This document shows, piece after piece, positions 195 to 32,607 of a stretch of 33,541 bases of DNA. Source of the DNA: a virus (taxonomy: Duplodnaviria > Heunggongvirae > Uroviricota > Caudoviricetes); IMG/VR virus record IMGVR_UViG_2627853869_000007, one strand, 5' to 3'. The position numbers and the translations under genes are program-made. A model generated the notes under the pieces. That model was not told where the DNA came from, searched no databases, and saw only the letters and a program-made list of their open reading frames with translations. The stretch's first letter is position 1. Each line of letters begins with the position of its first letter.

Positions 195-1150
<956 letters not shown>

Positions 1151-3442: not shown

Positions 3443-4018
3443 TTATCTAACATATTTAACTGTTAAACTTATAATTTTACCAATTATTTCAATGTCTTCT
3501 ATCTTACATTCGAAGGCTCTGTTTCCACCCTCGACGAAGATTCTTCCACCGGGTAAACGAGTAATGTCACGGATCGTTACTTCGCCATCAATACTTATTA
3601 CCCATTTACCATCACGTATGTCATCAAATTCTTTATCACAAATAAATTCAGAATTGTTATCTGTGATGACAAAAGGTTTTTTAAACGTAGAGGGTAGAAA
3701 TCCCTTATCAAAAATATAAAAACCGTCTTCACGCAAGGCACCATCAGATAATACATATTTAGCAACTTCCATAGTATTTGTATTACCTGAAGTTTGCTTT
3801 GAACCATGTCCGGTTGTGAGCCAATTAAGCGAGGTGCCCGTTTCAAGGGCGCACTGGATTACCCATTCTGCTGGGAATGAGTCACGCATGTAGCGTGTGG
3901 CGAGTGTACTTTTAGAGATTCCTAAATGATCGCACAACGCCTGTCGAGTCTTGAATCCATAAGCTTCTACCATGCGCTCTATGGCGCCTCGTCCGCCTTT
4001 CTCCAAATTCATGGTCAC
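3443..4018 (-). CDS. cI: 186-type CI immunity repressor (N-terminal HTH, C-terminal CI-like domain)
   Basis: 191-aa ORF with EAYGF...LCDHLGISKSTLATRYMRD...CALETGTSLNWLTTG and C-terminal ...IRDITRLPGGRIFVEGGNRAFECKIEDIEIIG pattern resembling phage 186 CI; divergently transcribed from the apl-like gene. Confidence 0.7.
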   Translation of the reverse strand: MTMNLEKGGRGAIERMVEAYGFKTRQALCDHLGISKSTLATRYMRDSFPAEWVIQCALETGTSLNWLTTGHGSKQTSGNTNTMEVAKYVLSDGALREDGFYIFDKGFLPSTFKKPFVITDNNSEFICDKEFDDIRDGKWVISIDGEVTIRDITRLPGGRIFVEGGNRAFECKIEDIEIIGKIISLTVKYVR

Positions 4019-4640: not shown

Positions 4641-5809
<1,169 letters not shown>

Positions 5810-5817
5810 CCACTTCA

Positions 5818-6457
5818 CGCCAGAGTTTTATTTGAGATCGCAAACAGGGAGGTGGCTTATTACAACATAAGGCAGGAGTTTAATTACTCAACTGAAATTA
5901 CTGATTTCATGAAAGCGGTATATTTCCTGTATCTCAATCGTCACGGTTACCGTGGTTTATGTCGCTATAACAAGAGCGGGCATTTCAACATTCCCTACGG
6001 CAATTATAAAAATCCGTATTTCCCTGAAAAAGAAATTCGCGCATTTGCAGAAAAAGCCCAGCGAGCAACGTTTATCTGCGCCAGCTTTGATGAAACGCTG
6101 GCGATGTTGAAGGCGGGGGATGTGGTGTATTGCGATCCACCGTATGACGGTACGTTTTCCGGCTATCACACTGATGGTTTCACTGAAGATGACCAGTATC
6201 ACCTAGCATCCGTTCTTGAACATCGGTCATCAGAAGGACATCCGGTCATTGTTTCTAACAGTGACACATCCCTGATCCGTTCGCTGTATCGCAATTTTAC
6301 TCACCACTATATCAAGGTAAAACGCAGCATCGGTGTGGCAGCTGGCGAGGGTAAATCAGCAACAGAAATCATTGCTGTTTCCGGGCCGCGCTGCTGGGTG
6401 GGATTTGATTATTCGCGTGGCGTGGATAGTTCTGCCGTGTACGGAGTACGTGCATGA
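5818..6457 (+). pseudogene. dam: Dam-type N6-adenine DNA methyltransferase, 5'-truncated (N-terminal SAM-binding region missing)
   Basis: Translation ...YYNIRQEFN...[19 protein letters not shown]...VVYCDPPY... matches the middle and C-terminal parts of Dam including the DPPY motif; the open frame begins inside the IS911 terminal repeat. Confidence 0.7.
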
Positions 6458-8868
6458 GCCATGCCGATATGAACAACTGCTGCGGCTTTAACGAGGCTGC
6501 CGCAGCGTTCTCATGGAACAGCCCGAAAAAGGCCATTAACCCTTATCTGGACCCGGCGGAAGTTGCGCCGGTTTCTGCGCTTTCAAACCTGATCACTCTG
6601 TACGCTGCCGATAACGAGCAGGAACAGTTGCGCCGCGAGGCACTGAGTGATCAGGTCTGGGAGCGTTATTTTTTTTATGAATCACGTGATCCTGTCCAGC
6701 ACGAAATGGAGCAGGATAAGCTCATTAGCCGGGCAAAGCTGGCGCATGAGCAGCAGCGTTTTAATCCGGATATGGTCATTCTGGCGGACGTCAACGCCCA
6801 GCCTTCCCATATCAGCAAGCCGCTGATGCAACGTATTGAATACTTCAGCAGCCTGGGCAGGCCAAAGGCTTATTCCCGCTATTTACGTGAGACGATTAAG
6901 CCATGTCTGGAACGACTGGAGCATGTACGCGACAGCCAGCTATCTGCATCTTTTCGTTTTATGGCAAGCCATGTAGGGCTGGACGGCCTGCTGATTCTGC
7001 CTGAAATGAGTCAGGATCAGGTGAAACGCCTGTCTACCCTTGTCGCTGCGCATATGAGCATGTGCCTTGATGCAGCTTGTGGTGATTTGTATGCCACCGA
7101 TGACGTTAAGCCAGAAGAAATCCGCAAGACATGGGAAAAGGTGGCAGCGGAAACCCTGCGTCTGGATGTCATCCCGCCTGCGTTTGAGCAACTCCGTCGG
7201 AAAAGAAACCGCCGTAAACCCGTGCCCTATGAACTCATTCCGGGTTCGCTGGCGCGTATGTTGTGCGCCGACTGGTGGTACCGGAAATTATGGAAAATGC
7301 GTTGCGAATGGCGGGAAGAGCAGTTGCGTGCTGTCTGCCTGGTCAGCAAAAAAGCATCTCCCTATGTCAGCTATGAAGCCGTGATGCATAAACGTGAGCA
7401 GCGCCGCAAGTCATTGGAGTTTTTCCGTTCTCATGAACTGGTGAACGAAGAGGGCGACACGCTGGATATGGAAGACGTGGTAAACGCCAGCAGCAGCAAC
7501 CCGGCGCACCGCCGCAATGAGATGATGGCCTGTGTTAAAGGTCTGGAGCTTATCGCGGAAATGCGCGGTGACTGCGCCGTTTTCTACACCATTACCTGTC
7601 CGTCACGTTTCCATTCCACGCTCAATAACGGCAGACCAAACCCAACCTGGACAAATGCGACGGTAAGACAAAGCAGCGATTATCTGGTCGGCATGTTTGC
7701 TGCATTTCGTAAGGCGATGCACAAAGCCGGGTTGCGCTGGTATGGCGTGCGGGTGGCTGAGCCGCATCATGACGGTACAGTTCACTGGCACCTGTTGTGT
7801 TTTATGCGCAAAAAAGACCGCCGCGCCATTACTGCATTGTTGCGTAAGTTTGCCATCCGTGAAGACCGCGAGGAACTGGGTAATAACACTGGTCCACGCT
7901 TTAAATCTGAGCTGATAAACCCGCGCAAAGGAACGCCGACAAGCTACATCGCGAAATACATCAGTAAGAACATTGACGGGCGTGGTCTGGCTGGCGAGAT
8001 CAGCAAGGAAACGGGTAAATCCCTGCGTGATAACGCTGAATACGTTAATCCCTGGGCGTCTCTGCATCGTGTTCAGCAATTCCGCTTCTTTGGTATTCCA
8101 GGGCGTCAGGCTTACCGTGAACTGCGGTTGTTGGCTGGTCAGGCGGCAAGGCAGCAGGGTGACAAAAAAGCAGGTGCGCCGGTACTGGATAACCCGCGCC
8201 TTGATGCCATCCTGGCTGCTGCTGATGCTGGCTGTTTTGCCACCTACATTATGAGGCAGGGCGGCGTGCTGGTTCCTCGCAAATATCACTTGATCAGAAC
8301 CGCTTATGAAATCAATGAAGAGCCGACCGCCTATGGCGATCACGGTATTCGTATTTATGGCATCTGGTCACCCATTGCAGAAGGCAAGATCTGCACTCAT
8401 GCAGTGAAGTGGAAAATGGTTCGTAAAGCCGTTGACGTTCAGGAGGCGGCAGCCGACCAGGGCGCTTGCGCCCCTTGGACTCGTGGCAATAACTGTCTCC
8501 TTGCTGAAAATTTGAACCAACAGGAGAAAGATAAATCAGCTGATGGGAACCCCAGAACGGACATTACCAGCATGGATGACAAGGAGTTGCACGATTACCT
8601 GCACAGTATGAGCAAAAAAGAGCGCCGGGAACTGGCAGCAAGGTTACGCCTGGTGAAACCGAAACGGCGTAAAGACTACAAACAGCGAATTACAGACCAT
8701 CAGCGACTGCAGCTCGTGTATGAGCTGAAGTCCAGAGGATTTGATGGCAGCGAGAAAGAGGTCGATTTACTCCTTCGCGGAGGCAGTATTCCGTCAGGAG
8801 CAGGCCTGCGTATCTTCTATCGGAACCAGCGTTTGCAGGAAGATGATCAGTGGCGGAACCTGTATTAA
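6454..8868 (+). CDS. A: P2-family replication initiation endonuclease GpA (HUH rolling-circle initiator)
   Basis: 804-aa ORF with HUH-type motif TVHWHLLCF and tyrosine motif [12 protein letters not shown]; start ATG overlaps the dam stop (ATGA). Confidence 0.85.
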
Positions 8869-8962
8869 TTACGCGGGTTAACAATTCGTGCTCTTAATAA
8901 TACCAGGCATATCAGGCTGATGAACGTAAAAAAACGTTTTACATCAGTAAGATTATTATATG

Positions 8963-8978
8963 CTGTAAATATAAACAG
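8963..8978. promoter_or_regulatory. LexA (SOS) box CTGT-N8-ACAG
   Basis: CTGTAAATATAAACAG, a 16-bp match to the CTGT-(AT-rich)8-ACAG SOS-box pattern, about 45 bp upstream of the RBS-preceded ORF at 9022. Confidence 0.55.
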
Positions 8979-9021
8979 TGGTTATGCATACAGTATTGCG
9001 TGTGGTGTCATAGGAGGAAAG

Positions 9022-9210
9022 ATGCAGGACTATTTTTTGGAGTCTTTGAAGCTCCAGCGCATTGATTTTTTTCTTAAGCTTGTAGCGGCTAGTGAGTGTA
9101 GTGATGAAGAGAAGGGGCTGGCTCTGCAGTGGGTTTCTGAATTGACTGATGAACTCATGGCAAAAATCAGAACCCACGAATACAACCGCTCAATGGATGT
9201 CATCAGCTGA
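9022..9210 (+). CDS. small hypothetical protein (62 aa), possibly the N-terminal part of a 186 Tum-like antirepressor module
   Basis: ATG at 9022 preceded by AGGAGG; position between gene A and the DinI-like gene. Confidence 0.45.
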   Translation: MQDYFLESLKLQRIDFFLKLVAASECSDEEKGLALQWVSELTDELMAKIRTHEYNRSMDVIS

Positions 9211-9230
9211 GGTGACTTTTATGCGCATTG

Positions 9231-9454
9231 AAATAATGATCGATAAAGAGCAGAAGATTAGCCAGTCTACCCTGGACGCTCTTGAATCCGAGCTTTACCG
9301 CAATCTGCGCCCTCTGTATCCCAAAACGGTAATTCGTATCCGCAAAGGTAGCTCTAACGGTGTGGAACTTACTGGATTGCAACTGGACGAAGAAAGAAAA
9401 CAAGTGATGAAAATTATGCAGAAGGTGTGGGAAGACGACAGCTGGCTGCATTAA
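9231..9454 (+). CDS. DinI-like protein
   Basis: 74-aa ORF MRIEIMIDKEQKISQSTLDALESELYRNLRPLYPKTVIRIRKGSSNGVELTGL...VWEDDSWL, the DinI family pattern. Confidence 0.75.
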
Positions 9455-9589
9455 GAAACGTTGCTGGCGTCTGAACTAGCTTCTGGCGTCAGCAAGGTTG
9501 AACAACGAGCCCTTGCGAGGCGTTAGCTCTGTAGTGCATGTCTATGCCGCATGAGATCGCATGATCGTTTGAGGATCGTTTTTGCTAAG

Positions 9590-9614
9590 GCCCGCCAGAA
9601 CTGGCGGGCTTTTG
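9590..9614 (+). terminator. rho-independent terminator after the DinI-like gene
   Basis: GC-rich hairpin GCCCGCCAG/CTGGCGGGC followed by TTTTG. Confidence 0.6.
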
Positions 9615-9656
9615 CGTAGATCATGCAGGTGCATGAAAACCTCTACATAAAGCGGG

Positions 9657-9675
9657 CAGGCGTGGCGGGGATACG
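9657..9675. other. cos-like sequence (candidate cohesive-end site)
   Basis: GGCGTGGCGGGGATACGAT resembles the 19-nt P2/186 cohesive-end sequence as I recall it (GGCG(A/T)GGCGGGGAAAGCA-); first 13 nt identical to the 186 version; recalled, not searched. Confidence 0.35.
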
Positions 9676-9746
9676 ATTGCGCGCTAGGTATAAGTGTGTA
9701 AAATAATTCCAAAATAAATCATCACTAATGAAGTGAGAGGGTAATA

Positions 9747-11396
9747 ATGTTAGTCAAGAAAAATAAAAATTATAGTTTATATTTTTTAATTACAAATAAT
9801 CAACAGATATCTGATTCTGGTAATTATATAAAAATAGTCCCATCAAGAAGCGATTGGAATGATTTTGGATATTTGAGTAGAGTCGAAATATCTATTTTTA
9901 ATAAAAAAGAGTGTAAGGATATAATTTCACTGAATGGTTATATTGGTTTTTTGAATTCAGAGGAGGAACGAAATGGAAAAGCAGAACTGATAAGGCGAGT
10001 GAAGAAAAAGGAAGAATCTAATTTAAAGGATGAGGGGTTTAATGATTATTTTGTCATGCTTCAGGATATGAATAATTATCGAAGACTAGTAAGATTTTTT
10101 GGGGTGAATGAATCCAAATATATATTAAATTTCATTAATGATGTTGTTTCTAAGAAAAGTGACGCTAGTGCAGAGAATTTGAGGAAAAAAGCAATCTCTT
10201 CTGATATCTTTAATAAATCTTTCATTAGAGAGTCTGAGTCGTATTTTACTTTCAAAAATGCAGGAACAGTTCTTTCCGGTATTCAATATGAGGAGTTGGG
10301 TAATTTATCACAGCACATCAAGATTAGCTATTCGAATAAAGTTAATGAAGAAGATGTATCTTATGTTTTTAATTTTGATCACGAGCATGATTTACCAAAA
10401 AGAATTTCCATAATTATAGGCGAGAATGGTGTAGGAAAAAGCCAAACGCTTAGAGAAATCGCATTGGCTGCGATTAAAGGAAAGGATAATTTGGTGGCTG
10501 TAGTTGATTCTAACGGTGTGAGCATTGAAGAACGAATTCAAATTAGTAGGCTCATTGCTTTTTCTCCAACAAATGAAAGTAAGTGTTCATTTCCAACCGA
10601 TAAAAGAATAAAATCATTGATATGGTACAAAAGATTGACTTTAAATCGTGAATCAAAATCCAAATTAAACTTGAATGATTTAATAGTGCAACTAGCGAGG
10701 AGTAACGACGCTATCGGCTATAATCAAAGGTGGAATATATTTGTTGATGCACTGAGTGTTCTAAATAGTAACAACGATTTAGTAATCAAATGTGGCGGTG
10801 AAAATTCACCATTTGTTAAATTAAATGAGCTTAATTCTCGAGGCGAAGAATCTAGACTATCATTATATTCTGAAATTATTCTCTCTGGCGAGCCTTTGAG
10901 GCTTATTGAAAATAAATGTTACCCTTTGAGTAGTGGGGAAATATCGTTTATTAAGTTTTGTGTACAAGTCTGTTTGTATATTGAGAATGGGACTCTTCTA
11001 TTAATAGATGAGCCAGAAACACATCTCCATCCTTCATTTATTAATAAATTTATGGCATTGCTTGATAATTTATTAGAAAAGACAGGCTCTTCAGCTATCA
11101 TAGCAACGCATTCGGTTTATCTTGTTCGGGAGGTTTTTAAGGAGCAAGTGACAATACTCAGAAGACGAGATGATGGGGTAATTGTTAGCGAAAAACCGAG
11201 ATTGAGTACTTTTGGGGCGAATATAGGAAATATCTCATATTTTGTTTTCGGTGAGAGTGAACCAACTCAAATTTTAAATAAAGTAAAAAACAATATAATT
11301 GCAAAGAATATGTCTTGGGATGATGTTGAATCTAAATATAGCGAGGACTTATCACTTAATGTATTAACTGCGTTGAGAAATGAAATGGGCAATTGA
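9747..11396 (+). CDS. ABC-type (AAA_15/AAA_21-like) ATPase with an unassigned ~215-aa N-terminal domain; candidate defence ATPase (Septu PtuA-like architecture)
   Basis: 549-aa ORF; Walker A GENGVGKS (Lys231, nt 10437-10439), signature-like LSSGE (394-398), Walker B LLLIDEPETHLHP (D421-E422), H-loop IATHS (H455); AT-rich and Asn/Lys/Ile-rich unlike flanking phage genes. Confidence 0.7.
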   Translation: MLVKKNKNYSLYFLITNNQQISDSGNYIKIVPSRSDWNDFGYLSRVEISIFNKKECKDIISLNGYIGFLNSEEERNGKAELIRRVKKKEESNLKDEGFNDYFVMLQDMNNYRRLVRFFGVNESKYILNFINDVVSKKSDASAENLRKKAISSDIFNKSFIRESESYFTFKNAGTVLSGIQYEELGNLSQHIKISYSNKVNEEDVSYVFNFDHEHDLPKRISIIIGENGVGKSQTLREIALAAIKGKDNLVAVVDSNGVSIEERIQISRLIAFSPTNESKCSFPTDKRIKSLIWYKRLTLNRESKSKLNLNDLIVQLARSNDAIGYNQRWNIFVDALSVLNSNNDLVIKCGGENSPFVKLNELNSRGEESRLSLYSEIILSGEPLRLIENKCYPLSSGEISFIKFCVQVCLYIENGTLLLIDEPETHLHPSFINKFMALLDNLLEKTGSSAIIATHSVYLVREVFKEQVTILRRRDDGVIVSEKPRLSTFGANIGNISYFVFGESEPTQILNKVKNNIIAKNMSWDDVESKYSEDLSLNVLTALRNEMGN

Positions 11397-12261
11397 AATG
11401 AATAAATTAAAAAGACCTGTTTTTAAAGATTATTCTGCATTTAAAAAACTATCTGCAAATAAGAGATTAAAACATCATTCTGTTCTGAATGGACAGGATA
11501 CATTTATACTTAATGCATATAGATCGTACATAAAGAATAAAGGGTATCTTAATGTCAATTCTTGTGGCGTATTGAGTAACAATATTGCTGAAGCTTTGAG
11601 ATATTATTATAACAATCCCGCAAAGTGTTTATCTATAATTGATGATATAAGAGCAGCTAATTCTAACTCTCTATGTCCAATGTGTGGTTCAATGCATAGC
11701 GGGACTTTGGATCATGTTTTACCCAAGGAAAACTATCCAGAATTTTCTTTATTCACTAAGAATTTGGTTCCTGCTTGCAAATGTAATACTTTCAAAAGTA
11801 CTACTATAGCTAATTCTGCAGGCCATCGGATGCTGCATCCATATTTTGATAATATATTAAAACAAAGATTAATATGTGCTAATTTTTCTAAATTAGGGCG
11901 AACACCTACAATTGATGTAAAAATCATAATTGACCCAATGTCACCAGAATATAACAATGTTAAGTATCATCTTGATAATGTTGTTATCAAGAATAATATT
12001 AAGGGGTATTTGTCTGAACAATGGGAGTCGTTTTACTTATATCCTGAGCTTGTTATTAGAGGACTGAATAAGAGTCTTTCTACTTATAGCGATGTATATG
12101 AGTTGTTGACTCGCGAGTTGTTGCTGTTGGATGAAAAACATAAAGGTAAAAATAATTGGAATTCGGTTTTTGTAGCTGGGTTAATTCGACCTGATGTGAT
12201 TAGGTGGATACTCTGTGAATTACATTTAGGTAACAGAAGTCCAGACGGTCGTCTCATATGA
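11380..12261 (+). CDS. HNH-family nuclease (PtuB-like partner); overlaps the upstream ATPase by 17 nt
   Basis: 293-aa ORF with CPMC(99-102)...DH(111-112)...N128...CKC(133-135)...H149/H153 arrangement typical of zinc-finger HNH endonucleases; alternative start at 11398. Confidence 0.7.
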   Translation: MKWAIEMNKLKRPVFKDYSAFKKLSANKRLKHHSVLNGQDTFILNAYRSYIKNKGYLNVNSCGVLSNNIAEALRYYYNNPAKCLSIIDDIRAANSNSLCPMCGSMHSGTLDHVLPKENYPEFSLFTKNLVPACKCNTFKSTTIANSAGHRMLHPYFDNILKQRLICANFSKLGRTPTIDVKIIIDPMSPEYNNVKYHLDNVVIKNNIKGYLSEQWESFYLYPELVIRGLNKSLSTYSDVYELLTRELLLLDEKHKGKNNWNSVFVAGLIRPDVIRWILCELHLGNRSPDGRLI

Positions 12262-12271
12262 TTTTTTGCAT

Positions 12272-12297
12272 CTTCAGCGTGTATCTGCACGCTGAAG
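12272..12297. repeat. perfect 10-bp inverted repeat hairpin just downstream of the HNH gene
   Basis: CTTCAGCGTG-TATCTG-CACGCTGAAG; no U-tract on either strand, so function (terminator vs protein-binding site) is unclear. Confidence 0.5.
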
Positions 12298-12367
12298 AAA
12301 TTCATAAAAACTGCTGGCTATTAATAAATTTTTTAGCTGTGTTAAAGAACCTCATTTAGTGATTACG

Positions 12368-13402
12368 TTAAGTAGCTAGTTTATAACTATCAAATTTAAC
12401 AATGTTCTCACTTACCAATTTATTTATTTCCATCATTCTTTTTTGTAACGGTATTAACTCGTTACGTACAAACTCCAGGCTCGCCTTCTCCACATCCCCA
12501 AACCCCCCGACATTATTAGGCATAATCCCCATCATTTGCGGTGGCACACGATGCGCCGCCATCATGTCATCCCGGCTCACGTTCTTGATGTTCAGAAACT
12601 CATCCTTCGCCGCGACTTCTGACAACGGGATGATCTGAAGCCCGTCCTTTTTGCCGTTAGGCGAGTACATAAACAGATTGCGGAAGTTACCTGGTCCTTT
12701 GGCGCTTTTCATCGCATTGCGGAGGTTGTTCACATCCTCCTGGTTTTGCGCGGCATCGGTCATGTACATGATGAAGCCTGCATGACTGCCGTTAATGTAA
12801 TACTATCGGCGGAACAGCGTGGCGGACTCGTTGAGCAGGGCTGACGGAATGGCAGAAAGGTAACCTGGCAGGCCGTAGATCTCTTGGTTGATGTCCGGTT
12901 CCATCAGATGAAAGATGCTTCCTTTCGTGAACTGATACGGCTGCGTGGTCATGCCGTATTGCACAAACCAGTAGGTATCCAGGTCTAATCCGCGTCGGGT
13001 GTATTTTGCCAGAGCAGGCTCAAGAGCGATGACCTCTCCGAACCGGTTTGTGCGTTTCTCCAGGTAAGCGTTACCAAATACCAGATAATCCTGCACAAAA
13101 CGTGAAAAAGCCTGCTGGCTGAGCAGCGGGTGAGGGATGTAGGTACTGATCAGAATGTTGCATTTCACCGCAATTGGTGAACTGTGATGCACGGCGGCGC
13201 GGAAGGTGCGCGCCAGTCCGTCAAAACTCACTGGCGGCTCATACCAGCGATCTGTCTGTACGCATTCCACATAGTCCAGTAGTTCACGGCGGTCCAGAAC
13301 CGGAACGGGATCGCCGAAGCTGAATGCTTCGGCTGAAGTCTGGTTTTTATGCTGGGTCTGTTTCGTCGCCGCAGCGCGGTTCTTCTTACTCTTTCCCATC
13401 AA
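12368..13402 (-). pseudogene. Q: portal protein GpQ interrupted by a single in-frame amber (TAG) codon at 12803-12805
   Basis: ORFs 12803-13402 and 12368-12769 are in the same frame; read through the TAG they give a continuous 344-codon portal-like protein (...ATLFRR*YYINGSHAGFIMYMTDAAQ...). Confidence 0.8.
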
Positions 13403-15165
13403 AAAATCTCCACAATATTGCTGGTATTGGCGGACTCGCCCTGCAGCGGTTCGTTAAACAGTGCGTGCATTGTTGCCCAGGCCAGATCGGCATGGCTGGC
13501 TTCTTCGCTGCGGCTGGCTTCATAGGTCGGGCGGTTGCCGCTGGCGGTGGTGGCGCGACGGATTGCCATGAATGACTGCGCAATGTCGGTGTGCCCGGCG
13601 TCAAACTCAAGACGGCGGTGGCTGATAATGTCGTAGGCCTTGAGTACCAGGGCGTTTTTAACGTTGGGGTTGTAGACAAACTCCCGGACGGCAGGAAAAA
13701 ACGCTTTCACGTTCTCGTAAACCCCGTGACCAACGCCGGTTGAGTCGATGCCGATATAGGTCACGTTGTACTGTTCAGTCAGTTTTTTGATGGCGTCAGC
13801 CTGGGCGCGAAAGTCCATTCCGCGCCACTGGTGACGCTCAAGAATGCGGAACTTACCGCCTGGCACGGCTGGCGGTGCCACCACCACGCATCCGGCGCTG
13901 TCGCCGTTCTGCGTACCTTTTGCCGGGTCATAACCGATCCACACTTCGCGCCAGCCAAACGGGCGCAGGGCCAGTGCATGAAAGTCGGTCCAGACTTCCC
14001 AGCTGTCCACCATGCACGCCTGCAATTCGCTGAGCGGGAACACGGACGCGAGATCGTCCACGAACTCGCACATCAGCAGGTTCTGGTATTCGTCAGGGCT
14101 GTACTCCATGCGCAACTGGTCAAGGTCGAACAGGTTACAGGCGCCGCGCACCGCATCTTCCACGGTGACTATCTGGCGGTATTGCCCGTCTGCGCACAGC
14201 CGGCCGGGGGCCAGATTGCTGTGGGACAGGTCGATGTCCACCTTGTCAGCTTTGTTGCGCCCACGGTTGAACAGCGCACCGGACCAGAACGGATAAGCAC
14301 TGTGGGTCAGACTGGATGGTGTGGAAAAATAGGTCTGCCGCCATTTCTTGTGAATAGCCATACCGGAAGCCACTTTGCGTAGCTCCTGAAATTTCGGTAT
14401 CCAGAAATATTCATCCAGATACAGGTTACCGTGATAACTCTGGGCAGTGCGGGCATTGGTGCCGAGGAAATACAGTGTGGCCCCGTTGGGAAGCACCATC
14501 GGATCGCCTTTCAGCTCCACCTCCACTTCTTTGGCAAAGTCGATGATGTACTGTTTGAAGACGTGGGCCTGTGCCTTACTGGCAGAAAGGAAAATCTGGT
14601 TACGTCCGGTAAGCAGGGCGTCAATCAGGGCTTCACGGGCAAAATAGAAGGTCGCGCCGATCTGGCGTGACTTCAGCAGGTTGCGGATGCGGTTGGTTTT
14701 TCCGGCTTCCCACCAGTGGCGCTGGTAGTTGAACATGGAGGAATGGAAAATTTTTTCCAGCTTCTCAATCTGGTCATCGGTGAAAACATTCTTTTCAGGC
14801 TGACGGCGTGGGCCTTTGTTGCGGTTGGCGACGTTAGGGTTTAAGTCGGCTTCGTTGCCGCCATTGTTAAACTTGCCGATCCGCGCGTGGCGCTCAGACT
14901 GGCGCGCCAGCAGGTCAATCTCTTTGAAATCTTTCCCTTCTTTGTGCTCCTTCATGATGAGCTGGCAGTAGCGTGCGGCGGTGGTGAGCTGCATCTGATC
15001 CAGAGGCCCATAGTCACCCCACTTGTCGCGTTTTTTCCAGCTGTGAACGGTTGCAACTTTCTCGCCCAGCATTTCAGCAATGCGGGCTACGCGGTATCCC
15101 TGAAAGTACAGCAGCATGGCCTGCCGACGGGGATCGAGATCTGCGGGTGTCAGTGTGGTGTTCAT
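13399..15165 (-). CDS. P: terminase large (ATPase) subunit GpP
   Basis: 588-aa ORF upstream of and overlapping Q, divergent from O; P2-family terminase pattern. Confidence 0.85.
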   Translation of the reverse strand: MNTTLTPADLDPRRQAMLLYFQGYRVARIAEMLGEKVATVHSWKKRDKWGDYGPLDQMQLTTAARYCQLIMKEHKEGKDFKEIDLLARQSERHARIGKFNNGGNEADLNPNVANRNKGPRRQPEKNVFTDDQIEKLEKIFHSSMFNYQRHWWEAGKTNRIRNLLKSRQIGATFYFAREALIDALLTGRNQIFLSASKAQAHVFKQYIIDFAKEVEVELKGDPMVLPNGATLYFLGTNARTAQSYHGNLYLDEYFWIPKFQELRKVASGMAIHKKWRQTYFSTPSSLTHSAYPFWSGALFNRGRNKADKVDIDLSHSNLAPGRLCADGQYRQIVTVEDAVRGACNLFDLDQLRMEYSPDEYQNLLMCEFVDDLASVFPLSELQACMVDSWEVWTDFHALALRPFGWREVWIGYDPAKGTQNGDSAGCVVVAPPAVPGGKFRILERHQWRGMDFRAQADAIKKLTEQYNVTYIGIDSTGVGHGVYENVKAFFPAVREFVYNPNVKNALVLKAYDIISHRRLEFDAGHTDIAQSFMAIRRATTASGNRPTYEASRSEEASHADLAWATMHALFNEPLQGESANTSNIVEIF

Positions 15166-21903: not shown

Positions 21904-22002
21904 CACCCGACTTAACGCCGTGTTGGATTACATTGACGCGGTGGCGGCAACAGATACCAGCACCGCGCCGGATGTCATCTGGCCTGAACTGCCGGAGGCG
22001 TA
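21904..22002 (+). pseudogene. tail fiber assembly gene, 3' remnant (5' part removed by IS1)
   Basis: Frame from 21904 reads ...NAVLDYIDAVAATDTSTAPDVIWPELPEA*, a typical tail-fiber-assembly C-terminus; converges on and overlaps the 3' end of the opposite-strand tfa gene. Confidence 0.6.
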
Positions 22003-22412
22003 GGCCATTCAATATCTGGAGCACTGGAGGTATCAATCAGTTCCAGTGCGTCCAGATAATCCAGCCACAAATTATATTGCGCCAGTTCCTCACCTTTCAG
22101 ACGACCAATAGCGGCTTTACCGGGCCATTGTTTACTGTTCATGTATTCGTTGGCCTGATTAAGCAATAATTGCCTTTCTGATTCTGCCTGTTGAATAAGT
22201 TCTTCATATGATGGTGGAGGTATTAGTGCCCATGTGGGTAATCCATTTTTTCCTGCAACACGAATTTTGTCATCTGGGGGCGTATTGATTGCAAATTCAT
22301 TATAAACATCATCACTGACAGCCAGAGCATCATCTGGCCATGAATTTGCATTAATGTAATCATCCTTAAGCGCAGGATTCACAAAAATGTTTAAAGATGG
22401 ACTATAAAACAT
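21975..22412 (-). CDS. tail fiber assembly protein (Tfa/U-type chaperone) of the invertible segment
   Basis: 145-aa ORF ...NSKQWPGKAAIGRLKGEELAQYNLWLDYLDALELIDTSSAPDIEWP... Confidence 0.8.
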   Translation of the reverse strand: MFYSPSLNIFVNPALKDDYINANSWPDDALAVSDDVYNEFAINTPPDDKIRVAGKNGLPTWALIPPPSYEELIQQAESERQLLLNQANEYMNSKQWPGKAAIGRLKGEELAQYNLWLDYLDALELIDTSSAPDIEWPTPPAVQAR

Positions 22413-22413
22413 A

Positions 22414-22803
22414 TTAAACCCCTATAGCGATATAACGACCTAATACAGCATTTGCAGCAGTCGCTATGCTTGAAAAACCGCGGAACTGATTTGATGTAAT
22501 TGCAGAAGCCGACAGGATTCCTGCGCCTGAAGGTGTATGCCCCACATGACTAACTATCATCCCATAACATGCTGACGGAAAGGCAAAAGGAAAATCATTA
22601 AGATATCCTGCATCTTCACCACCAGACCCACCAAATCTCGCCTGCCCCCACTGAATAATCAGTGTTCTCCGGGAACCTGAAATAATTAACGGAATCGTTA
22701 CATACCCATTCAGGCCAATGACACCCGATGCAGTGCCAGCCAGAGATAATTCTCCCAAACCAACGTTTAAGAAAATGCAGAGATAATGGCTAACTGGCAT
22801 CAT
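22414..22803 (-). CDS. tail fibre C-terminal variable segment (alternative cassette; constant part absent)
   Basis: 129-aa ORF immediately upstream of tfa on the same strand; its 5' end contains the recombination site, so the N-terminal residues are read-in sequence. Confidence 0.6.
   Translation of the reverse strand: MMPVSHYLCIFLNVGLGELSLAGTASGVIGLNGYVTIPLIISGSRRTLIIQWGQARFGGSGGEDAGYLNDFPFAFPSACYGMIVSHVGHTPSGAGILSASAITSNQFRGFSSIATAANAVLGRYIAIGV
22750..22775. promoter_or_regulatory. serine-invertase crossover site (gix/hix/pix-like)
   Basis: TTCTCCCAAACCAACGTTTAAGAAAA fits the 26-bp pattern TTCTC..AAACC...GTTT..GA.AA of Hin/Gin/Pin inversion sites; lies inside the tail-fibre segment about 55 bp before the invertase start. 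Confidence 0.5.
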
Positions 22804-22829
22804 CCCCGGTTTTTATTCAGGGGATTGAT

Positions 22830-23397
22830 CATGCTTATTGGCTATGTACGCGTGTCAACAAATGACCAGAACACCGATTTGCAACGTAATGCACTGAACT
22901 GCGCGGGATGTGAGCGGATTTTTGAGGATAAAATCAGTGGCACTAAGCCCGACAGACCGGGGCTTAAAAAACTGCTCAGGACACTATCGGCAGGAGACAC
23001 GCTGGTTGTCTGGAAGCTGGACAGACTGGGACGCAGTATGCGGCATCTTGTTACGCTGATAGAAGAGTTGCGCCAGCGTGGTGTGAATTTCCGAAGCCTG
23101 ACTGACAGTATTGATACCAGTACCCCAATGGGCCGTTTCTTTTTTCACGTCATGGGGGCTCTGGCTGAAATGGAACGTGAACTGATAGTTGAACGTACCA
23201 GAGCAGGGCTGGCTGCAGCTCGTGCCAAAGGCAGAGTAGGTGGACGCCGTCCTAAGTTGACCACCGAACAGTGGGCACAGATTGGACGTTTACTCGAGGC
23301 CGGAGAATCAAGACAGCGTATTGCACTGATTTTTGATGTGGGCGTTTCTACCATTTATAGAAAATTTCCGGCGAATGAGAGCAATGAATCGCCCTGA
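22830..23397 (+). CDS. serine site-specific DNA invertase (Hin/Gin/Pin/Cin family)
   Basis: MLIGYVRVSTNDQNTDLQRNAL...TLVVWKLDRLGRSMRHL... with catalytic Ser in VRVSTNDQ and C-terminal HTH. Confidence 0.9.
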
Positions 23398-30377: not shown

Positions 30378-30467
30378 TTCTTCGCAATGGAGAACTTTTA
30401 AGTTTGCAAAGTGGAATAATGCGGTATCATTATTGTGAATTTAGCAAAAATGGGGAGAGCTCGAAAA

Positions 30468-30921: not shown

Positions 30922-32607
30922 TTATCCTAATCCTGGCCATACCATGACGATGATTGTCCCTGCCAGCGTCAGCAGGACGTTGGCGATTGCGTAGGTGCCC
31001 GCATAGCCCAGCGCAGGGATGTTACTGTGAGCTGTATCACTGATGATCTCCATTGCCGGCGCGCAGGTGCGTGCGCCCATCATTGCGCCGAACAACAGTG
31101 CGCGGTTCATTCGCAATACATAAGCACCGAACAAGAAACAGATAACCACGGGCACAAGACTGACAATTAATCCGGCAATCAACATCTGACCGCCAATCGC
31201 GCCCAGGCCGTTATTAATACCGCTACCGGCGCTCAGACCAACGCCTGCCATAAACACCATCAAGCCGAACTCTTTCACCATGCTTAATGCACCTTGCGGA
31301 ATGTAACCGAAGGTCGGGTGGTTAGCACGCATAAAGCCCAGCATAATTCCGGCGAATAACAACCCGGCAGCGTTCCCCATGCCGAAACTGAATGTGCTGA
31401 ACTGGAAGGTGATCATCCCGATCATCAGCCCAATAACAAAGAAGGCGCAAAATGCCAGCAGGTCAGTGACCTGGCTGTGAATCGAGATAAAGCCGATGCG
31501 ATCGGCGATGGTTTTTACGCGACGGGCATCACCGCTGACTTGTAAAACGTCACCTTTGTTAAGCACGACGTTGTCATCTATCGGCATCTCAATCTGGCTA
31601 CGAATGACGCGGTTAAGGAAGCAACCGTGATCGGTCAACTTCAGTTGTGCGAGACGTTTACCTACAGCGTTATGGTTTTTAACGACCACTTCTTCAGTGA
31701 CGATACGCATGTCGAGAAGGTCACGATCGAAAACTTCTTTACCGTTACGGAAGCTGGGATCGAGTCGGGCATGGGCGTCGGGATAGCCTACCAACGCTAT
31801 TTCATCGCCCATTTGTAGCACGGCATCACCGTCTGGATTTGCCAGAATCCCGTTACGTCGAATACGTTCAATGTAGCAGCCGGTTTGTCGATAAATACCC
31901 AGTTCACGCAGATTTTTGCCGTCGGTCCAGGCCACCAGCTCCGGGCCGACGCGATAGGCGCGGATCACCGGTAAATAAACCTTACGGTTGGCATCAGTGT
32001 CCAGGCCACGTTCGCGGGCGATTTGCTGGGCGCTGGTCTGTAAGTCCTGATGCTGCAATTTCGGCAAGTAACGCGCACCAACAATCAAACTCACCAGACC
32101 GATTAAATAGGTTAAGGCATACCCGAGGCTCAGATTATCCAGTGCCAGTGAGAGCTGCCTGCTTTCCATGCCGGAATGACGCAGTGTATCGCCAGCACCG
32201 ACCAGAACCGGTGTCGACGTCATAGAGCCTGCTAACATACCGGCCGTCAGGCCAATATCCCAGCCAAACAGCTTACCTAACCCTAAGGCGATCACCAGCG
32301 CACTGCCAACCATCACCAGTGCTAACATTAGGTAATTTTTCCCATCGCGAAAAAAAATGGAAAAAAAGTTCGGTCCGGCTTCGACCCCGACGCAGAAAAT
32401 AAACAGCATAAAGCCAAGATTAAGCGCATCGGTGTTAATGCTGAAATGTTGTTGGCCTAATAACAGCGATACGACTAAAACGCCAATGGAATTACCCAGT
32501 TGGATCGAACCAAGTCGTAACTTTCCGAGACATAGCCCAAGCGCGAGGACCACAAATAATAACAGAATGTAATTCCCATTTAACAATTCGGCGACGTTTA
32601 TATTCAC
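30922..32607 (-). CDS. ybjL: YbjL putative transporter (host)
   Basis: 561-aa [58 protein letters not shown]..., the E. coli YbjL sequence. Confidence 0.9.

What the first reader, a model, noticed from the sequence alone, without database searches (positions are those of the whole stretch)
9455..12367. Cargo lies between a cos-like site and the portal gene, bracketed by hairpins
A sequence matching 16 of 19 positions of the P2/186 cohesive-end sequence (as I recall it) lies at 9657-9675, after a strong terminator (9590-9614) that closes the A/DinI-like operon. The AT-rich cargo begins about 70 bp later and ends in a perfect 10-bp inverted repeat (12272-12297) about 70 bp before the portal stop codon. 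The cassette is thus a discrete insertion at the genome end adjacent to cos, the same neighbourhood where P2 carries old and tin.
Basis: partly seen in the sequence, partly recalled or inferred. Interest (0 to 1): 0.5.

Follow-up and report, generated by a model that had tools for sequence, protein, structure and literature searches.

The report
Defence cassette at P2-phage cos hotspot
A two-gene Septu-like (ATPase plus HNH nuclease) cassette sits in the well-known gene-swapping hotspot next to the DNA-packaging (cos) site of a decayed P2-like prophage; the layout is ordinary for this phage family, with the small twist that the swapped unit also carries the last ~25 codons of the portal gene.

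Summary
The cos 19-mer is at 9659-9677, not 9657-9675. It matches 186 cos at 16 of 19 positions, is the only such site in the window, and lies in a 56-bp core as similar to P2 and 186 as they are to each other. Both hairpins are real.

- The AT-rich segment is a discrete, exchangeable cassette: a PtuA-like ABC ATPase (9747-11396) and a PtuB-like HNH nuclease (11398-12261), PADLOC candidate PDC-M01.
- It occupies the cos-to-portal slot. P2 old/tin and 186 orf97 lie on the other side of cos; that slot (9455-9535) is empty here.
- The edges are not the hairpins. Variability starts 7-8 bp after the cohesive end (about 9685) and ends inside the portal gene (about 12418-12442).
- Across about 80 related loci the portal's last ~25 codons travel with the cargo.
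- There are no transposon-type ends.

The hotspot is published (Dodd & Egan 1996; Rousset 2022), and this cassette's proteins appear in Rousset's Table S5A.

The window's cos-to-portal stretch (9659-13402) is identical to Shigella boydii CP000036. That prophage is defective (amber codon in portal, IS insertions), but the cassette is intact.

Low novelty, modest interest.

The parts
9221..9454 (+). DinI/Tum-like gene, the last conserved gene on the A (right-end) side. It is preceded by a small conserved ORF at 9022-9210.
   Evidence: Pfam DinI 1.3e-22; phrog_189 and phrog_698; annotated as a DinI-like family protein in E. coli UPEC-245U.
9455..9535 (.). Empty A-side variable slot, the position equivalent to P2 old/tin and 186 orf97.
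   Evidence: Relatives carry 0.7-2.4 kb here: Fels-2, Klebsiella phage 4LV2017 and E. coli Z1322. In 79 IMG/VR loci the DinI-to-cos gap ranges from 202 to 3441 bp.
9536..9684 (+). Conserved cos block, an island of homology between the two variable slots. It contains GCAT-type repeats and the 56-bp core at 9629-9684.
   Evidence: Identity to relatives is 92-98% whatever cargo flanks it. The 56-bp core matches 186 at 46/56 and P2 at 44/56; P2 versus 186 is 48/56. Consensus frequency is at least 0.95 up to +25, then about 0.4.
9587..9612 (+). G+C-rich hairpin followed by UUUU: a terminator-like element inside the cos block, facing the DinI-side transcripts.
   Evidence: Free energy -23.4 kcal/mol, z = -4.65. 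It is conserved in relatives, with one compensatory C-G to A-T pair in Z1322.
9659..9677 (+). cos 19-mer (predicted cohesive end) GGCGTGGCGGGGATACGAT.
   Evidence: 16/19 match to the annotated 186 cos; single hit in the window with 0.02 expected by chance. 18/19 match to the cos reported for phage SEN8.
9685..9746 (+). Cassette leader: AT-rich, cassette-specific, with the ribosome-binding site GAGAGGG. A promoter here is only inferred.
   Evidence: Unrelated between phages that carry different cargo. Partly conserved with the Scandinavium copy of the same cassette.
9747..11396 (+). PtuA-like ABC/AAA_21 ATPase, 549 aa. Motifs: Walker A 225-232, signature LSSGE 394-398, Walker B 417-424, H-loop 453-456. 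About 190 aa precede the Walker A motif.
   Evidence: PADLOC PDC-M01A 3.2e-55 and PtuA 9.6e-32, nearly full length; Pfam AAA_21 3e-16; phrog_8066 8.8e-211; motifs located.
11398..12261 (+). PtuB-like HNH nuclease, 287 aa from the RefSeq start, or 293 aa from the ATG at 11380. Motifs: CxxC 99-102, DH 111-112, N128, CxCN 133-136.
   Evidence: PADLOC PDC-M01B 1.2e-33; phrog_10378 'HNH endonuclease' 2.7e-22; BLASTP to an E. coli Septu PtuB, E = 1e-7 over the H...N core; RefSeq names it 'HNH endonuclease'.
12272..12297 (.). Cassette-borne hairpin between the convergent HNH and portal genes. It has no U-tract on either strand.
   Evidence: Free energy -19.6 kcal/mol, z = -5.7. Two compensatory pairs distinguish it from the Scandinavium copy, whose cassette DNA is about 78% identical. 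A comparable hairpin lies within 100 nt of the portal stop in 87% of 52 distinct cassettes, against 8% of interior controls.
12368..12442 (-). Cassette-linked portal C-terminal tail: the last 24 codons plus the stop codon, G+C 0.23.
   Evidence: Homology to relatives resumes only at 12418-12441. The tail differs between phages whose portal bodies are otherwise about 99% identical. The tail co-segregates with cargo, and its G+C tracks cargo G+C.
12368..13399 (-). Portal gene Q, inactivated here by an amber codon at 12803-12805.
   Evidence: Translation shows the stop. The change is AAG to TAG relative to UPEC-245U. The same amber is present in six Shigella-type genomes. Pfam Phage_portal fragments.
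13399..15165 (-). Terminase large subunit P, the enzyme expected to act at cos.
   Evidence: Pfam Terminase_6N 1.2e-64, Terminase_6C 1.7e-49, Terminase_5 3.3e-27.

Best explanation
The window is a P2-like (Fels-2-type, Peduoviridae) prophage.

What the parts are:
- 9629-9684 is its cos packaging core, with the 19-nt cohesive end at 9659-9677.
- About 9685-12442 is one allele of the known cos-proximal defence hotspot. It lies in the slot between cos and portal gene Q, which is the left end of the virion DNA.
- The allele is a two-gene Septu-like system: a PtuA-type ABC ATPase and a PtuB-type HNH nuclease (PADLOC candidate PDC-M01).

How the cassette probably works (inferred by analogy). The two proteins form an ATPase-nuclease complex that is held inactive until phage infection. 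It then cleaves host or phage nucleic acid (tRNA-Tyr or DNA in characterised Septu systems) and aborts the infection.

What the exchange unit is (shown here by comparison). It comprises a leader, the two genes, a cassette-specific hairpin downstream of the portal stop, and the last ~25 codons of the portal gene. That hairpin occupies the place held by terminators tQ and tW in P2 and 186.

How exchange probably happens (inferred). Cassettes are swapped between co-resident P2-like phages. One crossover or end-joining event falls at the short conserved cos block. A second, homologous crossover falls in the conserved body of Q.

State of this copy. The prophage is dead: amber codon in portal, IS insertions. 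The cassette ORFs are intact, which fits retention as a host defence locus.
For: cos:
- Single 16/19 hit, with 0.02 expected by chance.
- The 56-bp core is 46/56 identical to 186 and 44/56 to P2.
- The sequence was named cos in phage SEN8.

Hotspot:
- Phages 92-98% identical in the flanks carry a retron, AIPR/Abi, TIR, Hypoth_Ymh or other genes at this position.
- In IMG/VR loci with the same cos, the cos-to-Q gap is 138-3362 bp. It exceeds 170 bp in 71 of 81 loci.
- Conservation stops at +26/+27.
- Published: PMC9122126, and PMC5694545 citing Dodd & Egan 1996.
- The cassette's proteins WP_000960488 and WP_024199288 are listed at this locus in Table S5A of PMC9122126.

Cargo identity:
- PADLOC PDC-M01A/B at 3e-55 and 1e-33; PtuA at 1e-31.
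- ATPase and HNH motifs are intact.
- Septu mechanism: PMC12819146 and PMC13096335.

Portal tail linkage:
- Portal body at least 95% identical with different cargo: tail 59 +/- 6% identical (n = 19 pairs).
- Same cargo with body under 93% identical: tail 94% identical (n = 15 pairs).
- Tail G+C correlates with cargo G+C (r = 0.69, p = 3e-10), whereas cargo G+C does not correlate with portal-body G+C (r = 0.16, p = 0.22).

Hairpin:
- Two compensatory pairs.
- Enriched next to the portal stop across cassettes, p = 8e-18.

Defective host copy:
-.
Against: - No experiment shows that PDC-M01 defends against phage. The literature search found it only in survey papers.
- The ATPase scores far below NCBIfam's PtuA cut-off (41 against 500 bits). 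It matches solved PtuA only weakly (E = 0.0017).
- The HNH protein has no Pfam, NCBIfam or PDB sequence hit.
- The ATACGA variant of cos has never been mapped biochemically. PSP3, whose ends were mapped, has the 186-type sequence.
- The exchange mechanism is inferred from mosaic boundaries only. The cos block offers just ~150 bp of homology, so breakpoints near cos are expected under plain homologous recombination too.
- The hairpin has no U-tract, so its role is unproven.
Confidence: 0.85

Rival explanations
1. The AT-rich block is a mobile element (transposon, IS-borne or integron-like cassette) that inserted next to cos. On this reading the two hairpins are its terminal structures.
For: The block has a sharp compositional contrast with its flanks, and strong hairpins lie near both ends.
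Against: - No target-site duplication or terminal inverted repeats were found; only AT-rich chance repeats appear.
- The left hairpin lies in DNA conserved in all relatives whatever their cargo.
- The right boundary is an in-frame, homologous but diverged portal C-terminus.
- The cassette encodes no transposase or integrase.
- The cassette has co-diverged with the phage backbone in Scandinavium: about 78% cassette identity against 80-82% for the backbone.
Confidence: 0.03
2. The HNH protein, with its ATPase, is a packaging accessory that helps terminase cut cos, as HNH proteins encoded beside the terminase genes do in HK97-like phages (own knowledge). On this reading it is not a defence system.
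For: An HNH gene sits between cos and the portal/terminase genes. Phage SEN8 also has an HNH gene in this slot.
Against: - Relatives with 92-98% identical cos blocks and portal bodies about 93% identical carry entirely different genes here, or nothing. Ten of 81 loci have an empty 138-161-bp slot, as do P2 and 186.
- The protein pair matches defence-system profiles over nearly its full length.
Confidence: 0.03
3. The cassette is real and sits in the hotspot, but its selected function is not antiviral defence. It could be an addiction or toxin module, or a restriction-like nuclease acting on plasmids.
For: PDC-M01 is only a candidate family. Rousset et al. found non-defence cargo, such as partition systems and toxins, at this hotspot. 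The displaced retron-Ec78 PtuAB complex is toxic to the host.
Against: The pair shows nearly full-length homology to PtuA models and carries a PtuB-type HNH core. In Septu Ec-B88 the Walker and H-N-H motifs are essential for phage defence. The cassette stays intact in a prophage that is otherwise decaying.
Confidence: 0.1
4. The 16/19 match is a relic or a chance resemblance, and the functional cos lies elsewhere, for example between the HNH gene and Q.
For: Three mismatches fall within the 19-mer, and there is no biochemical mapping for this sequence variant.
Against: - It is the only hit in the window.
- The surrounding 56-bp core is as conserved as P2 is against 186.
- The block is conserved in at least 120 viral contigs and 90 phage records.
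- 12262-12367 has no cos-like sequence and differs between cassettes.
Confidence: 0.02

Closest known systems
Cos-proximal gpA-gpQ defence hotspot of P2-like phages (Rousset et al. 2022, PMC9122126; also PMC13586616)
   Same: The locus is the same: between gene A/DinI and portal Q, directly beside cos. Gene content changes there between otherwise near-identical phages. This cassette's proteins (WP_000960488 and WP_024199288) are listed at that locus in their Table S5A.
   Different: In the text I read, those papers treat A-to-Q as one interval. Here it resolves into two independently filled slots separated by a ~150-bp cos island. The Q-side unit extends into the portal's last ~25 codons.
Retrons Ec67/Ec86 in 186-related prophages (Dodd & Egan 1996, known here only from its title as cited in PMC5694545); also the extra ORFs between cosL and gpQ in phiRSY1-like phages
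   Same: Foreign genes replace the DNA between cos and the terminator of the portal operon, which is the same cos-to-Q slot. A retron occupies this slot in Klebsiella phage 4LV2017, a close relative of the window.
   Different: The cargo type differs. I could not read the 1996 paper, so I do not know whether its right boundary also lies inside the portal gene.
P2 old/tin and 186 orf97
   Same: These are cos-adjacent, non-essential, AT-rich phage-exclusion genes of a P2-family prophage. Old also couples an ABC-type ATPase to a nuclease; the window's ATPase gives a weak PDB hit to an OLD-family protein (6p74).
   Different: They lie on the opposite side of cos, between A and cos. Old is a single ATPase-nuclease polypeptide (own knowledge), not an ATPase plus a separate HNH protein.
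Septu (PtuA/PtuB), e.g. Septu Ec-B88, and the effector pair of retron Ec78/Eco7
   Same: It is a two-gene ATPase plus HNH nuclease operon. Walker A, Walker B and signature motifs are intact. The HNH core aligns with PtuB residues H75 and N91, which are essential for defence.
   Different: - The best profiles are PADLOC PDC-M01, not PtuA/PtuB.
- NCBIfam PtuA scores 41 bits against a cut-off of 500.
- Walker A lysine is at 231 rather than 43, so about 190 extra N-terminal residues are present.
- There is no PDB sequence hit for the nuclease.
- The family is untested experimentally.

Membership tests
P2/186-type cos site | 19-nt cohesive-end sequence of the GGCG(A/T)GGCGGGGA... type | tested here: met
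   9659-9677 matches 186 at 16/19, P2 at 14/19 and the reported SEN8 cos at 18/19. It is the single hit in the window, with 0.02 expected by chance.
P2/186-type cos site | Conserved ~55-bp core around the cohesive end (Ziermann & Calendar 1990, as cited in PMC5694545) | tested here: met
   9629-9684 is 46/56 identical to 186 and 44/56 to P2; P2 versus 186 is 48/56. The next 54 bp are 13-15/54 identical, which is random level.
P2/186-type cos site | Position between the A/DinI end and the portal-terminase operon | tested here: met
   Gene A 6454-8868, DinI 9221-9454, cos 9659, Q 12368-13399(-), P 13399-15165(-).
P2/186-type cos site | Terminase cleavage producing 19-nt 5' overhangs | not testable with these tools
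   This needs mapping of virion DNA ends. This copy cannot make virions because its portal gene carries an amber codon.
P2-like cos-proximal defence hotspot | Variable gene content at a fixed position between conserved anchors in otherwise near-identical phages | tested here: met
   At least 63 distinct cargo types were found among 81 loci.
Septu (PtuAB) | ABC/AAA_15-21 ATPase with intact Walker A, Walker B and signature motifs | tested here: met
   AAA_21 3e-16; PtuA PADLOC model 9.6e-32 covering residues 32-535; motifs at 225-232, 394-398 and 417-424.
Septu (PtuAB) | Adjacent HNH nuclease with the catalytic H and N residues | tested here: met
   The ATPase stop is at 11396 and the HNH start at 11398. 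H112 and N128 align with PtuB H75 and N91. phrog_10378 'HNH endonuclease' 2.7e-22.
Septu (PtuAB) | Scores as PtuA/PtuB with curated family models | tested here: not met
   NCBIfam PtuA scores 41.1 bits against a cut-off of 500. There is no NCBIfam or Pfam hit for the nuclease. The best PADLOC models are PDC-M01A/B, a separate candidate family. It is therefore filed as Septu-like, not as Septu.
Septu (PtuAB) | Demonstrated anti-phage activity that depends on both enzymes | not testable with these tools
   This requires a cloning and plaque assay.
Intrinsic (Rho-independent) terminator: hairpin 12272-12297 | Stable G+C-containing stem-loop | tested here: met
   Free energy -19.6 kcal/mol on the plus strand and -18.1 on the minus strand; z = -5.7 and -5.0.
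Intrinsic (Rho-independent) terminator: hairpin 12272-12297 | U-tract immediately 3' of the stem | tested here: not met
   The plus strand continues AAAUUCAUAAA and the minus strand AUGCAAAAAAUC. The scanner did not flag it.
Transposon/IS-type insertion | Terminal inverted repeats and a target-site duplication at the edges of the foreign DNA | tested here: not met
   No repeat pairs 9680-9750 with 12260-12450 beyond low-complexity AT-rich matches.

The most novel reading that the evidence does not exclude
The swappable unit at the P2-family cos-to-portal slot is not just intergenic cargo.
- It begins 7-8 bp beyond the cohesive end.
- It carries its own hairpin.
- It always drags along the last ~25 codons of the essential portal gene, so every cassette exchange rewrites the portal C-terminus.

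This geometry would fit exchange that starts from heterologous annealing or joining of cohesive ends between co-resident P2-like phages, as Rousset et al. speculated. A homologous crossover at the last conserved stretch of Q (around RNELxPLQ) would then resolve it.

A stronger version holds that portal-tail variation is itself selected, for example to escape portal-sensing immunity.
Probability: 0.3. Interest if true: 0.45.

Novelty: already known. Interest (0 to 1): 0.25.

Why it matters
The finding adds little to what is known about the hotspot. P2-family phages are already known to keep exchangeable defence genes beside cos, and this cassette is already tabulated at that locus.

Three points give modest value:
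1. Base-level anatomy of the hotspot. There are two independent slots around a ~150-bp cos island, a sharp left edge at cos +26/+27, and a right edge inside the portal gene. This gives anchors for mining cassettes and constrains models of how they are exchanged.
2. The cargo belongs to an untested Septu-like family (PDC-M01) with an extra N-terminal domain on the ATPase. It is a reasonable candidate for a phage-challenge experiment.
3. The Shigella copy shows a defence cassette kept intact in a prophage that has lost its portal and early region.

Tried and rejected
- The consensus promoter/terminator scan flagged neither hairpin, and its hit counts equalled those of shuffles, so it was uninformative.
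- The cargo DNA has no match in the INPHARED phage collection, even in distant mode.
- The cargo DNA occurs in only 3 of 5426 complete E. coli genomes.
- The GTDB-representative scan returned a single relative, in Scandinavium.
- The PDB sequence search gave only weak ABC-ATPase hits for ORF1 and nothing meaningful for the HNH protein.
- Pfam and NCBIfam do not recognise the HNH protein.
- I looked for an experimentally mapped cos of the ATACGA type. PSP3 turned out to have the 186 sequence, and the SEN8 cos comes from annotation only.
- The Dodd & Egan 1996 paper is not held in the library.
- I tested the transposon-like insertion idea and rejected it.
- I considered the idea of an HNH packaging accessory and rejected it, because the slot is empty or filled differently in phages with the same cos block and closely related portal genes.
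- I tried to separate cos-end joining from ordinary recombination using the mismatch distribution left of cos in same-cargo pairs. Breakpoints fall within about 25-125 bp of cos, but the homology island is only ~150 bp long, so the test does not decide between the two.
- I read a possible promoter by eye: -35 TTGCGC overlapping the end of cos, then 16 nt, then TAAAAT at 9699-9704. It is too weak to claim.


Full report
**What the window is.** It is a P2-family prophage.
- Early and replication side: CI-type repressor (3443-4018), replication gene A (6454-8868), a small conserved ORF (9022-9210) and a DinI/Tum-like gene (9221-9454).
- Late side: portal Q (12368-13399, minus strand), terminase P (13399-15165, minus strand), then the capsid and tail genes.
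- The closest phage records are Fels-2-type Peduoviridae of Klebsiella, Escherichia and Salmonella. They are 86-94% identical in the flanks but cover only about 40% of 8800-13500, because the middle differs.

**Checking the observation.**
- The 19-mer GGCGTGGCGGGGATACGAT is at 9659-9677, two bases right of the stated coordinates.
- P2 and 186 carry GGCGAGGCGGGGAAAGCAC and GGCGTGGCGGGGAAAGCAT, annotated as cohesive ends at position 1 of their records.
- The window matches 186 at 16 of 19 positions. It is the only hit with up to 3 mismatches on either strand, with 0.02 expected by chance. The P2 version gives no other hit.
- The next seven bases, TGCGCGC, are identical in all three phages.
- In ungapped register the 56-bp core 9629-9684 is 46/56 identical to 186 and 44/56 to P2. 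P2 versus 186 is 48/56. The following 54 bp drop to 13-15/54, which is random level.
- The same 19-mer apart from its last base was reported as the cos of the isolated phage SEN8, whose record starts at it.
- The hairpin near 9590-9614 is real: -23.4 kcal/mol, z = -4.65, UUUU tail.
- The perfect 10-bp inverted repeat at 12272-12297 is real: -19.6 kcal/mol, z = -5.7. It lies 70 bp from the portal stop codon.
- G+C falls from about 0.52 to 0.27-0.35 between about 9700 and 12400.

**Where the variable DNA really begins and ends.**
- Left flank. Pairwise BLAST against four relatives with different cargo shows homology running to 9684-9687.
- Right flank. Homology resumes at 12418-12441, which is inside the portal ORF (stop codon at 12368).
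- In Fels-2 and Klebsiella phage 4LV2017, homology is also interrupted between 9452 and 9536. So 9536-9684 is a conserved island between two variable slots.
- The alignment shows this island shared even with P2 and 186: GCATGAGAT.GCAT, GTGCAT.AAAACC and AAGCGGGC motifs, then cos, then GCGCGC.
- I retrieved 120 IMG/VR contigs carrying the same cos 27-mer. Over 99 distinct downstream sequences, consensus frequency is at least 0.95 through cos position +25, 0.83 at +26, 0.53 at +27 and about 0.4 beyond.
- The left edge of the cassette is therefore about 9685, not the ORF start 62 bp further on. The first hairpin belongs to the conserved cos block rather than to the cargo.

**Two slots, and which one is filled.**
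- In P2, old and tin lie between orf91 and cosR. In 186, orf97 lies between tum and cos. Both are on the A side of cos.
- In the window that slot is the empty 81 bp at 9455-9535.
- E. coli Z1322 carries the same Q-side cassette plus 2.4 kb in the A-side slot.
- In the IMG/VR sample the DinI-to-cos gap is 202-3441 bp and is empty in 26 of 79 loci.
- The cos-to-Q gap is 138-3362 bp, with a median of 1555 bp. It is empty in only 10 of 81 loci; those empty gaps measure 138-161 bp, comparable to P2's 167 bp.
- Of 49 loci with both gaps measured, 31 have both slots filled, 12 only the Q side (like this window), 5 only the A side (like P2 and 186) and 1 neither.
The cassette sits on the other side of the packaging cut, at the left end of the virion DNA.

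**The portal tail travels with the cargo.**
- Portal proteins of close relatives are nearly identical up to the ...FVRNELxPLQ motif. They then diverge over the last ~25 residues while keeping a motif pattern (N.W....I..F..Y.L).
- Among 78 loci, pairs whose portal bodies (600 nt) are at least 95% identical but whose cargo differs have tails only 59 +/- 6% identical (n = 19, maximum 69%).
- Pairs with the same cargo but portal bodies under 93% identical have tails 94% identical (n = 15, minimum 87%).
- Over 63 distinct cassettes, tail G+C (mean 0.33) tracks cargo G+C (mean 0.37; r = 0.69, p = 3e-10). Cargo G+C does not correlate with portal-body G+C (mean 0.52; r = 0.16).
- In the window the tail (12368-12442) has G+C of 0.23.
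- The exchange unit is therefore about 9685-12442: leader, two genes, hairpin and portal tail.

**The second hairpin.**
- It lies between the convergent HNH and portal genes. Neither strand has a U-tract after it, so it fails the definition of an intrinsic terminator.
- It is nevertheless under selection. The Scandinavium copy of the cassette, about 78% identical in cassette DNA (82% ATPase protein identity), keeps the stem through two double (compensatory) changes.
- It is also a general feature. A hairpin of -12 kcal/mol or better lies within 100 nt downstream of the portal stop in 87% of 52 distinct cassettes, against 8% of interior control segments (Mann-Whitney p = 8e-18).
- In empty slots the equivalent hairpin is a canonical terminator with a T-run, as annotated for tQ and tW in P2 and 186.
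- I infer that each cassette brings its own insulator or 3'-end structure for the P-Q operon and the cargo. This is not shown.

**The cargo.**
- ORF1 (549 aa) is an ABC/AAA_21 ATPase with intact Walker A, signature, Walker B and H-loop motifs.
- It matches PADLOC PDC-M01A (3e-55) and a PtuA model over nearly its whole length (1e-31).
- ORF2 is called 'HNH endonuclease' in RefSeq. It matches PDC-M01B (1e-33) and an HNH PHROG.
- Its DH...N...CxCN core aligns with an E. coli Septu PtuB (E = 1e-7) at the residues equivalent to H75 and N91. Those residues are essential in Septu Ec-B88.
- Characterised Septu and retron-Ec78 PtuAB complexes are ATPase-regulated nucleases. They cut tRNA-Tyr and DNA and act by abortive infection.
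- Membership in Septu proper is not met with curated models: NCBIfam PtuA scores 41 bits against a cut-off of 500, and the nuclease has no Pfam, NCBIfam or PDB hit.
- The ATPase has about 190 extra residues before the Walker A motif. I file the pair as Septu-like, PADLOC candidate PDC-M01, for which I found no experimental paper.

**How it got there.**
- There are no terminal inverted repeats, target-site duplications or recombinase genes.
- The same cassette sits in the same slot in three E. coli genomes (at least 99.5% identical), one IMG/VR contig and a Scandinavium prophage. In Scandinavium the backbone is 80-82% and the cassette about 78% identical, so the cassette is an old resident of this phage lineage.
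- Same-cargo pairs can be 100% identical to the right of cos while the cos block to the left is only about 80% identical. This places one exchange boundary within tens of bases of cos.
- This fits the speculation of Rousset et al.: cohesive ends start the exchange and a second, homologous event completes it. Here the second event would fall in the portal body.
- Ordinary recombination within the 150-bp island would give the same picture, so the mechanism remains inferred.

**Prior knowledge.**
- The cos-proximal A-to-Q hotspot is the subject of PMC9122126, which found 1650 arrangements in 18,150 loci, and of PMC13586616.
- The cos-to-Q position was proposed as a pick-up site for foreign genes in the 1990s (Dodd & Egan 1996 and Nakayama 1999, as cited in PMC5694545).
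- Table S5A of PMC9122126 lists an E. coli locus with WP_000960488 and WP_024199288. These are the ATPase and HNH accessions annotated in strain Z1322.
- The finding is therefore an instance of a known system. What I could not find in the papers I read is the two-slot anatomy and the portal-tail linkage.

**State of this copy.**
- The exact ATPase protein occurs in many assemblies. CP000036.1 (Shigella boydii Sb227, by my own knowledge of that accession) is identical to the window from cos to the portal start.
- The portal carries an amber codon (AAG to TAG, 12803-12805) that is absent from E. coli UPEC-245U. The amber is present in all six Shigella-type genomes examined.
- The early region holds IS3-family and IS1 copies. 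One of them truncates the Dam-like methylase.
- Both cassette ORFs are intact in all copies.
- In this genome, then, cos is a fossil and the cassette is effectively a chromosomal defence locus.

**Verdict.** The kind of system is already known. Interest is low to modest.

Noticed in passing
window 12803-12805 (portal gene Q, minus strand): In-frame amber codon at portal codon 199 (AAG to TAG relative to E. coli UPEC-245U). The same stop is present in six Shigella-type genomes, including CP000036.1, while the ATPase and HNH ORFs remain intact. The prophage cannot make capsids.
   Followed up: yes
window 195-1150 and 4862-5817; also 1194-2084 and 2474-2977: Two 956-nt IS3-family copies in perfect inverted orientation flank a 3.7-kb segment that holds another rve transposase, an IS1 transposase and the CI repressor. 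The copy at 4862-5817 truncates the Dam-like methylase (5852-6457 matches only profile positions 87-253). No integrase was found in the ORFs I scanned.
   Followed up: partly
window 21975-23397: A resolvase/invertase gene (22786-23397, plus strand) lies next to oppositely oriented ORFs for a tail-fibre C-terminus and a tail-fibre assembly protein (21975-22803, minus strand). This looks like a Gin/Cin-type invertible host-range switch.
   Followed up: no
window 30922-32607: An Asp-Al_Ex/TrkA_C permease gene on the minus strand is probably a host gene, marking the end of the prophage.
   Followed up: no
window 12402-12410 (portal tail); L131 8603-9655: The portal tail linked to this cassette reads NKL, where nearly all of the ~70 other tail variants and the Scandinavium copy of the same cassette keep a conserved Trp (NxW). 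The E. coli copies share the Leu, so it predates the Shigella pseudogene.
   Followed up: partly
window 9496-9527: A 32-bp stretch in the otherwise empty DinI-to-cos slot is 94% identical to 186 DNA between orf97 and terminator t95b (186 coordinates about 30383-30413). It may be a conserved remnant or a signal of the A-side slot.
   Followed up: no
L139 (Salmonella phage SEN8) 128-2142: SEN8 carries a different two-gene set in the cos-to-Q slot: a hypothetical protein and an HNH endonuclease on the opposite strand. HNH nucleases therefore recur in this slot in unrelated cassettes.
   Followed up: no
L011-L130 (IMG/VR loci with the same cos): Only 18 of 70 distinct cos-to-Q alleles have a canonical T-rich tail after the hairpin downstream of the portal stop. 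The empty slots almost always do. How the P-Q operon terminates in cargo-bearing phages is unclear.
   Followed up: partly
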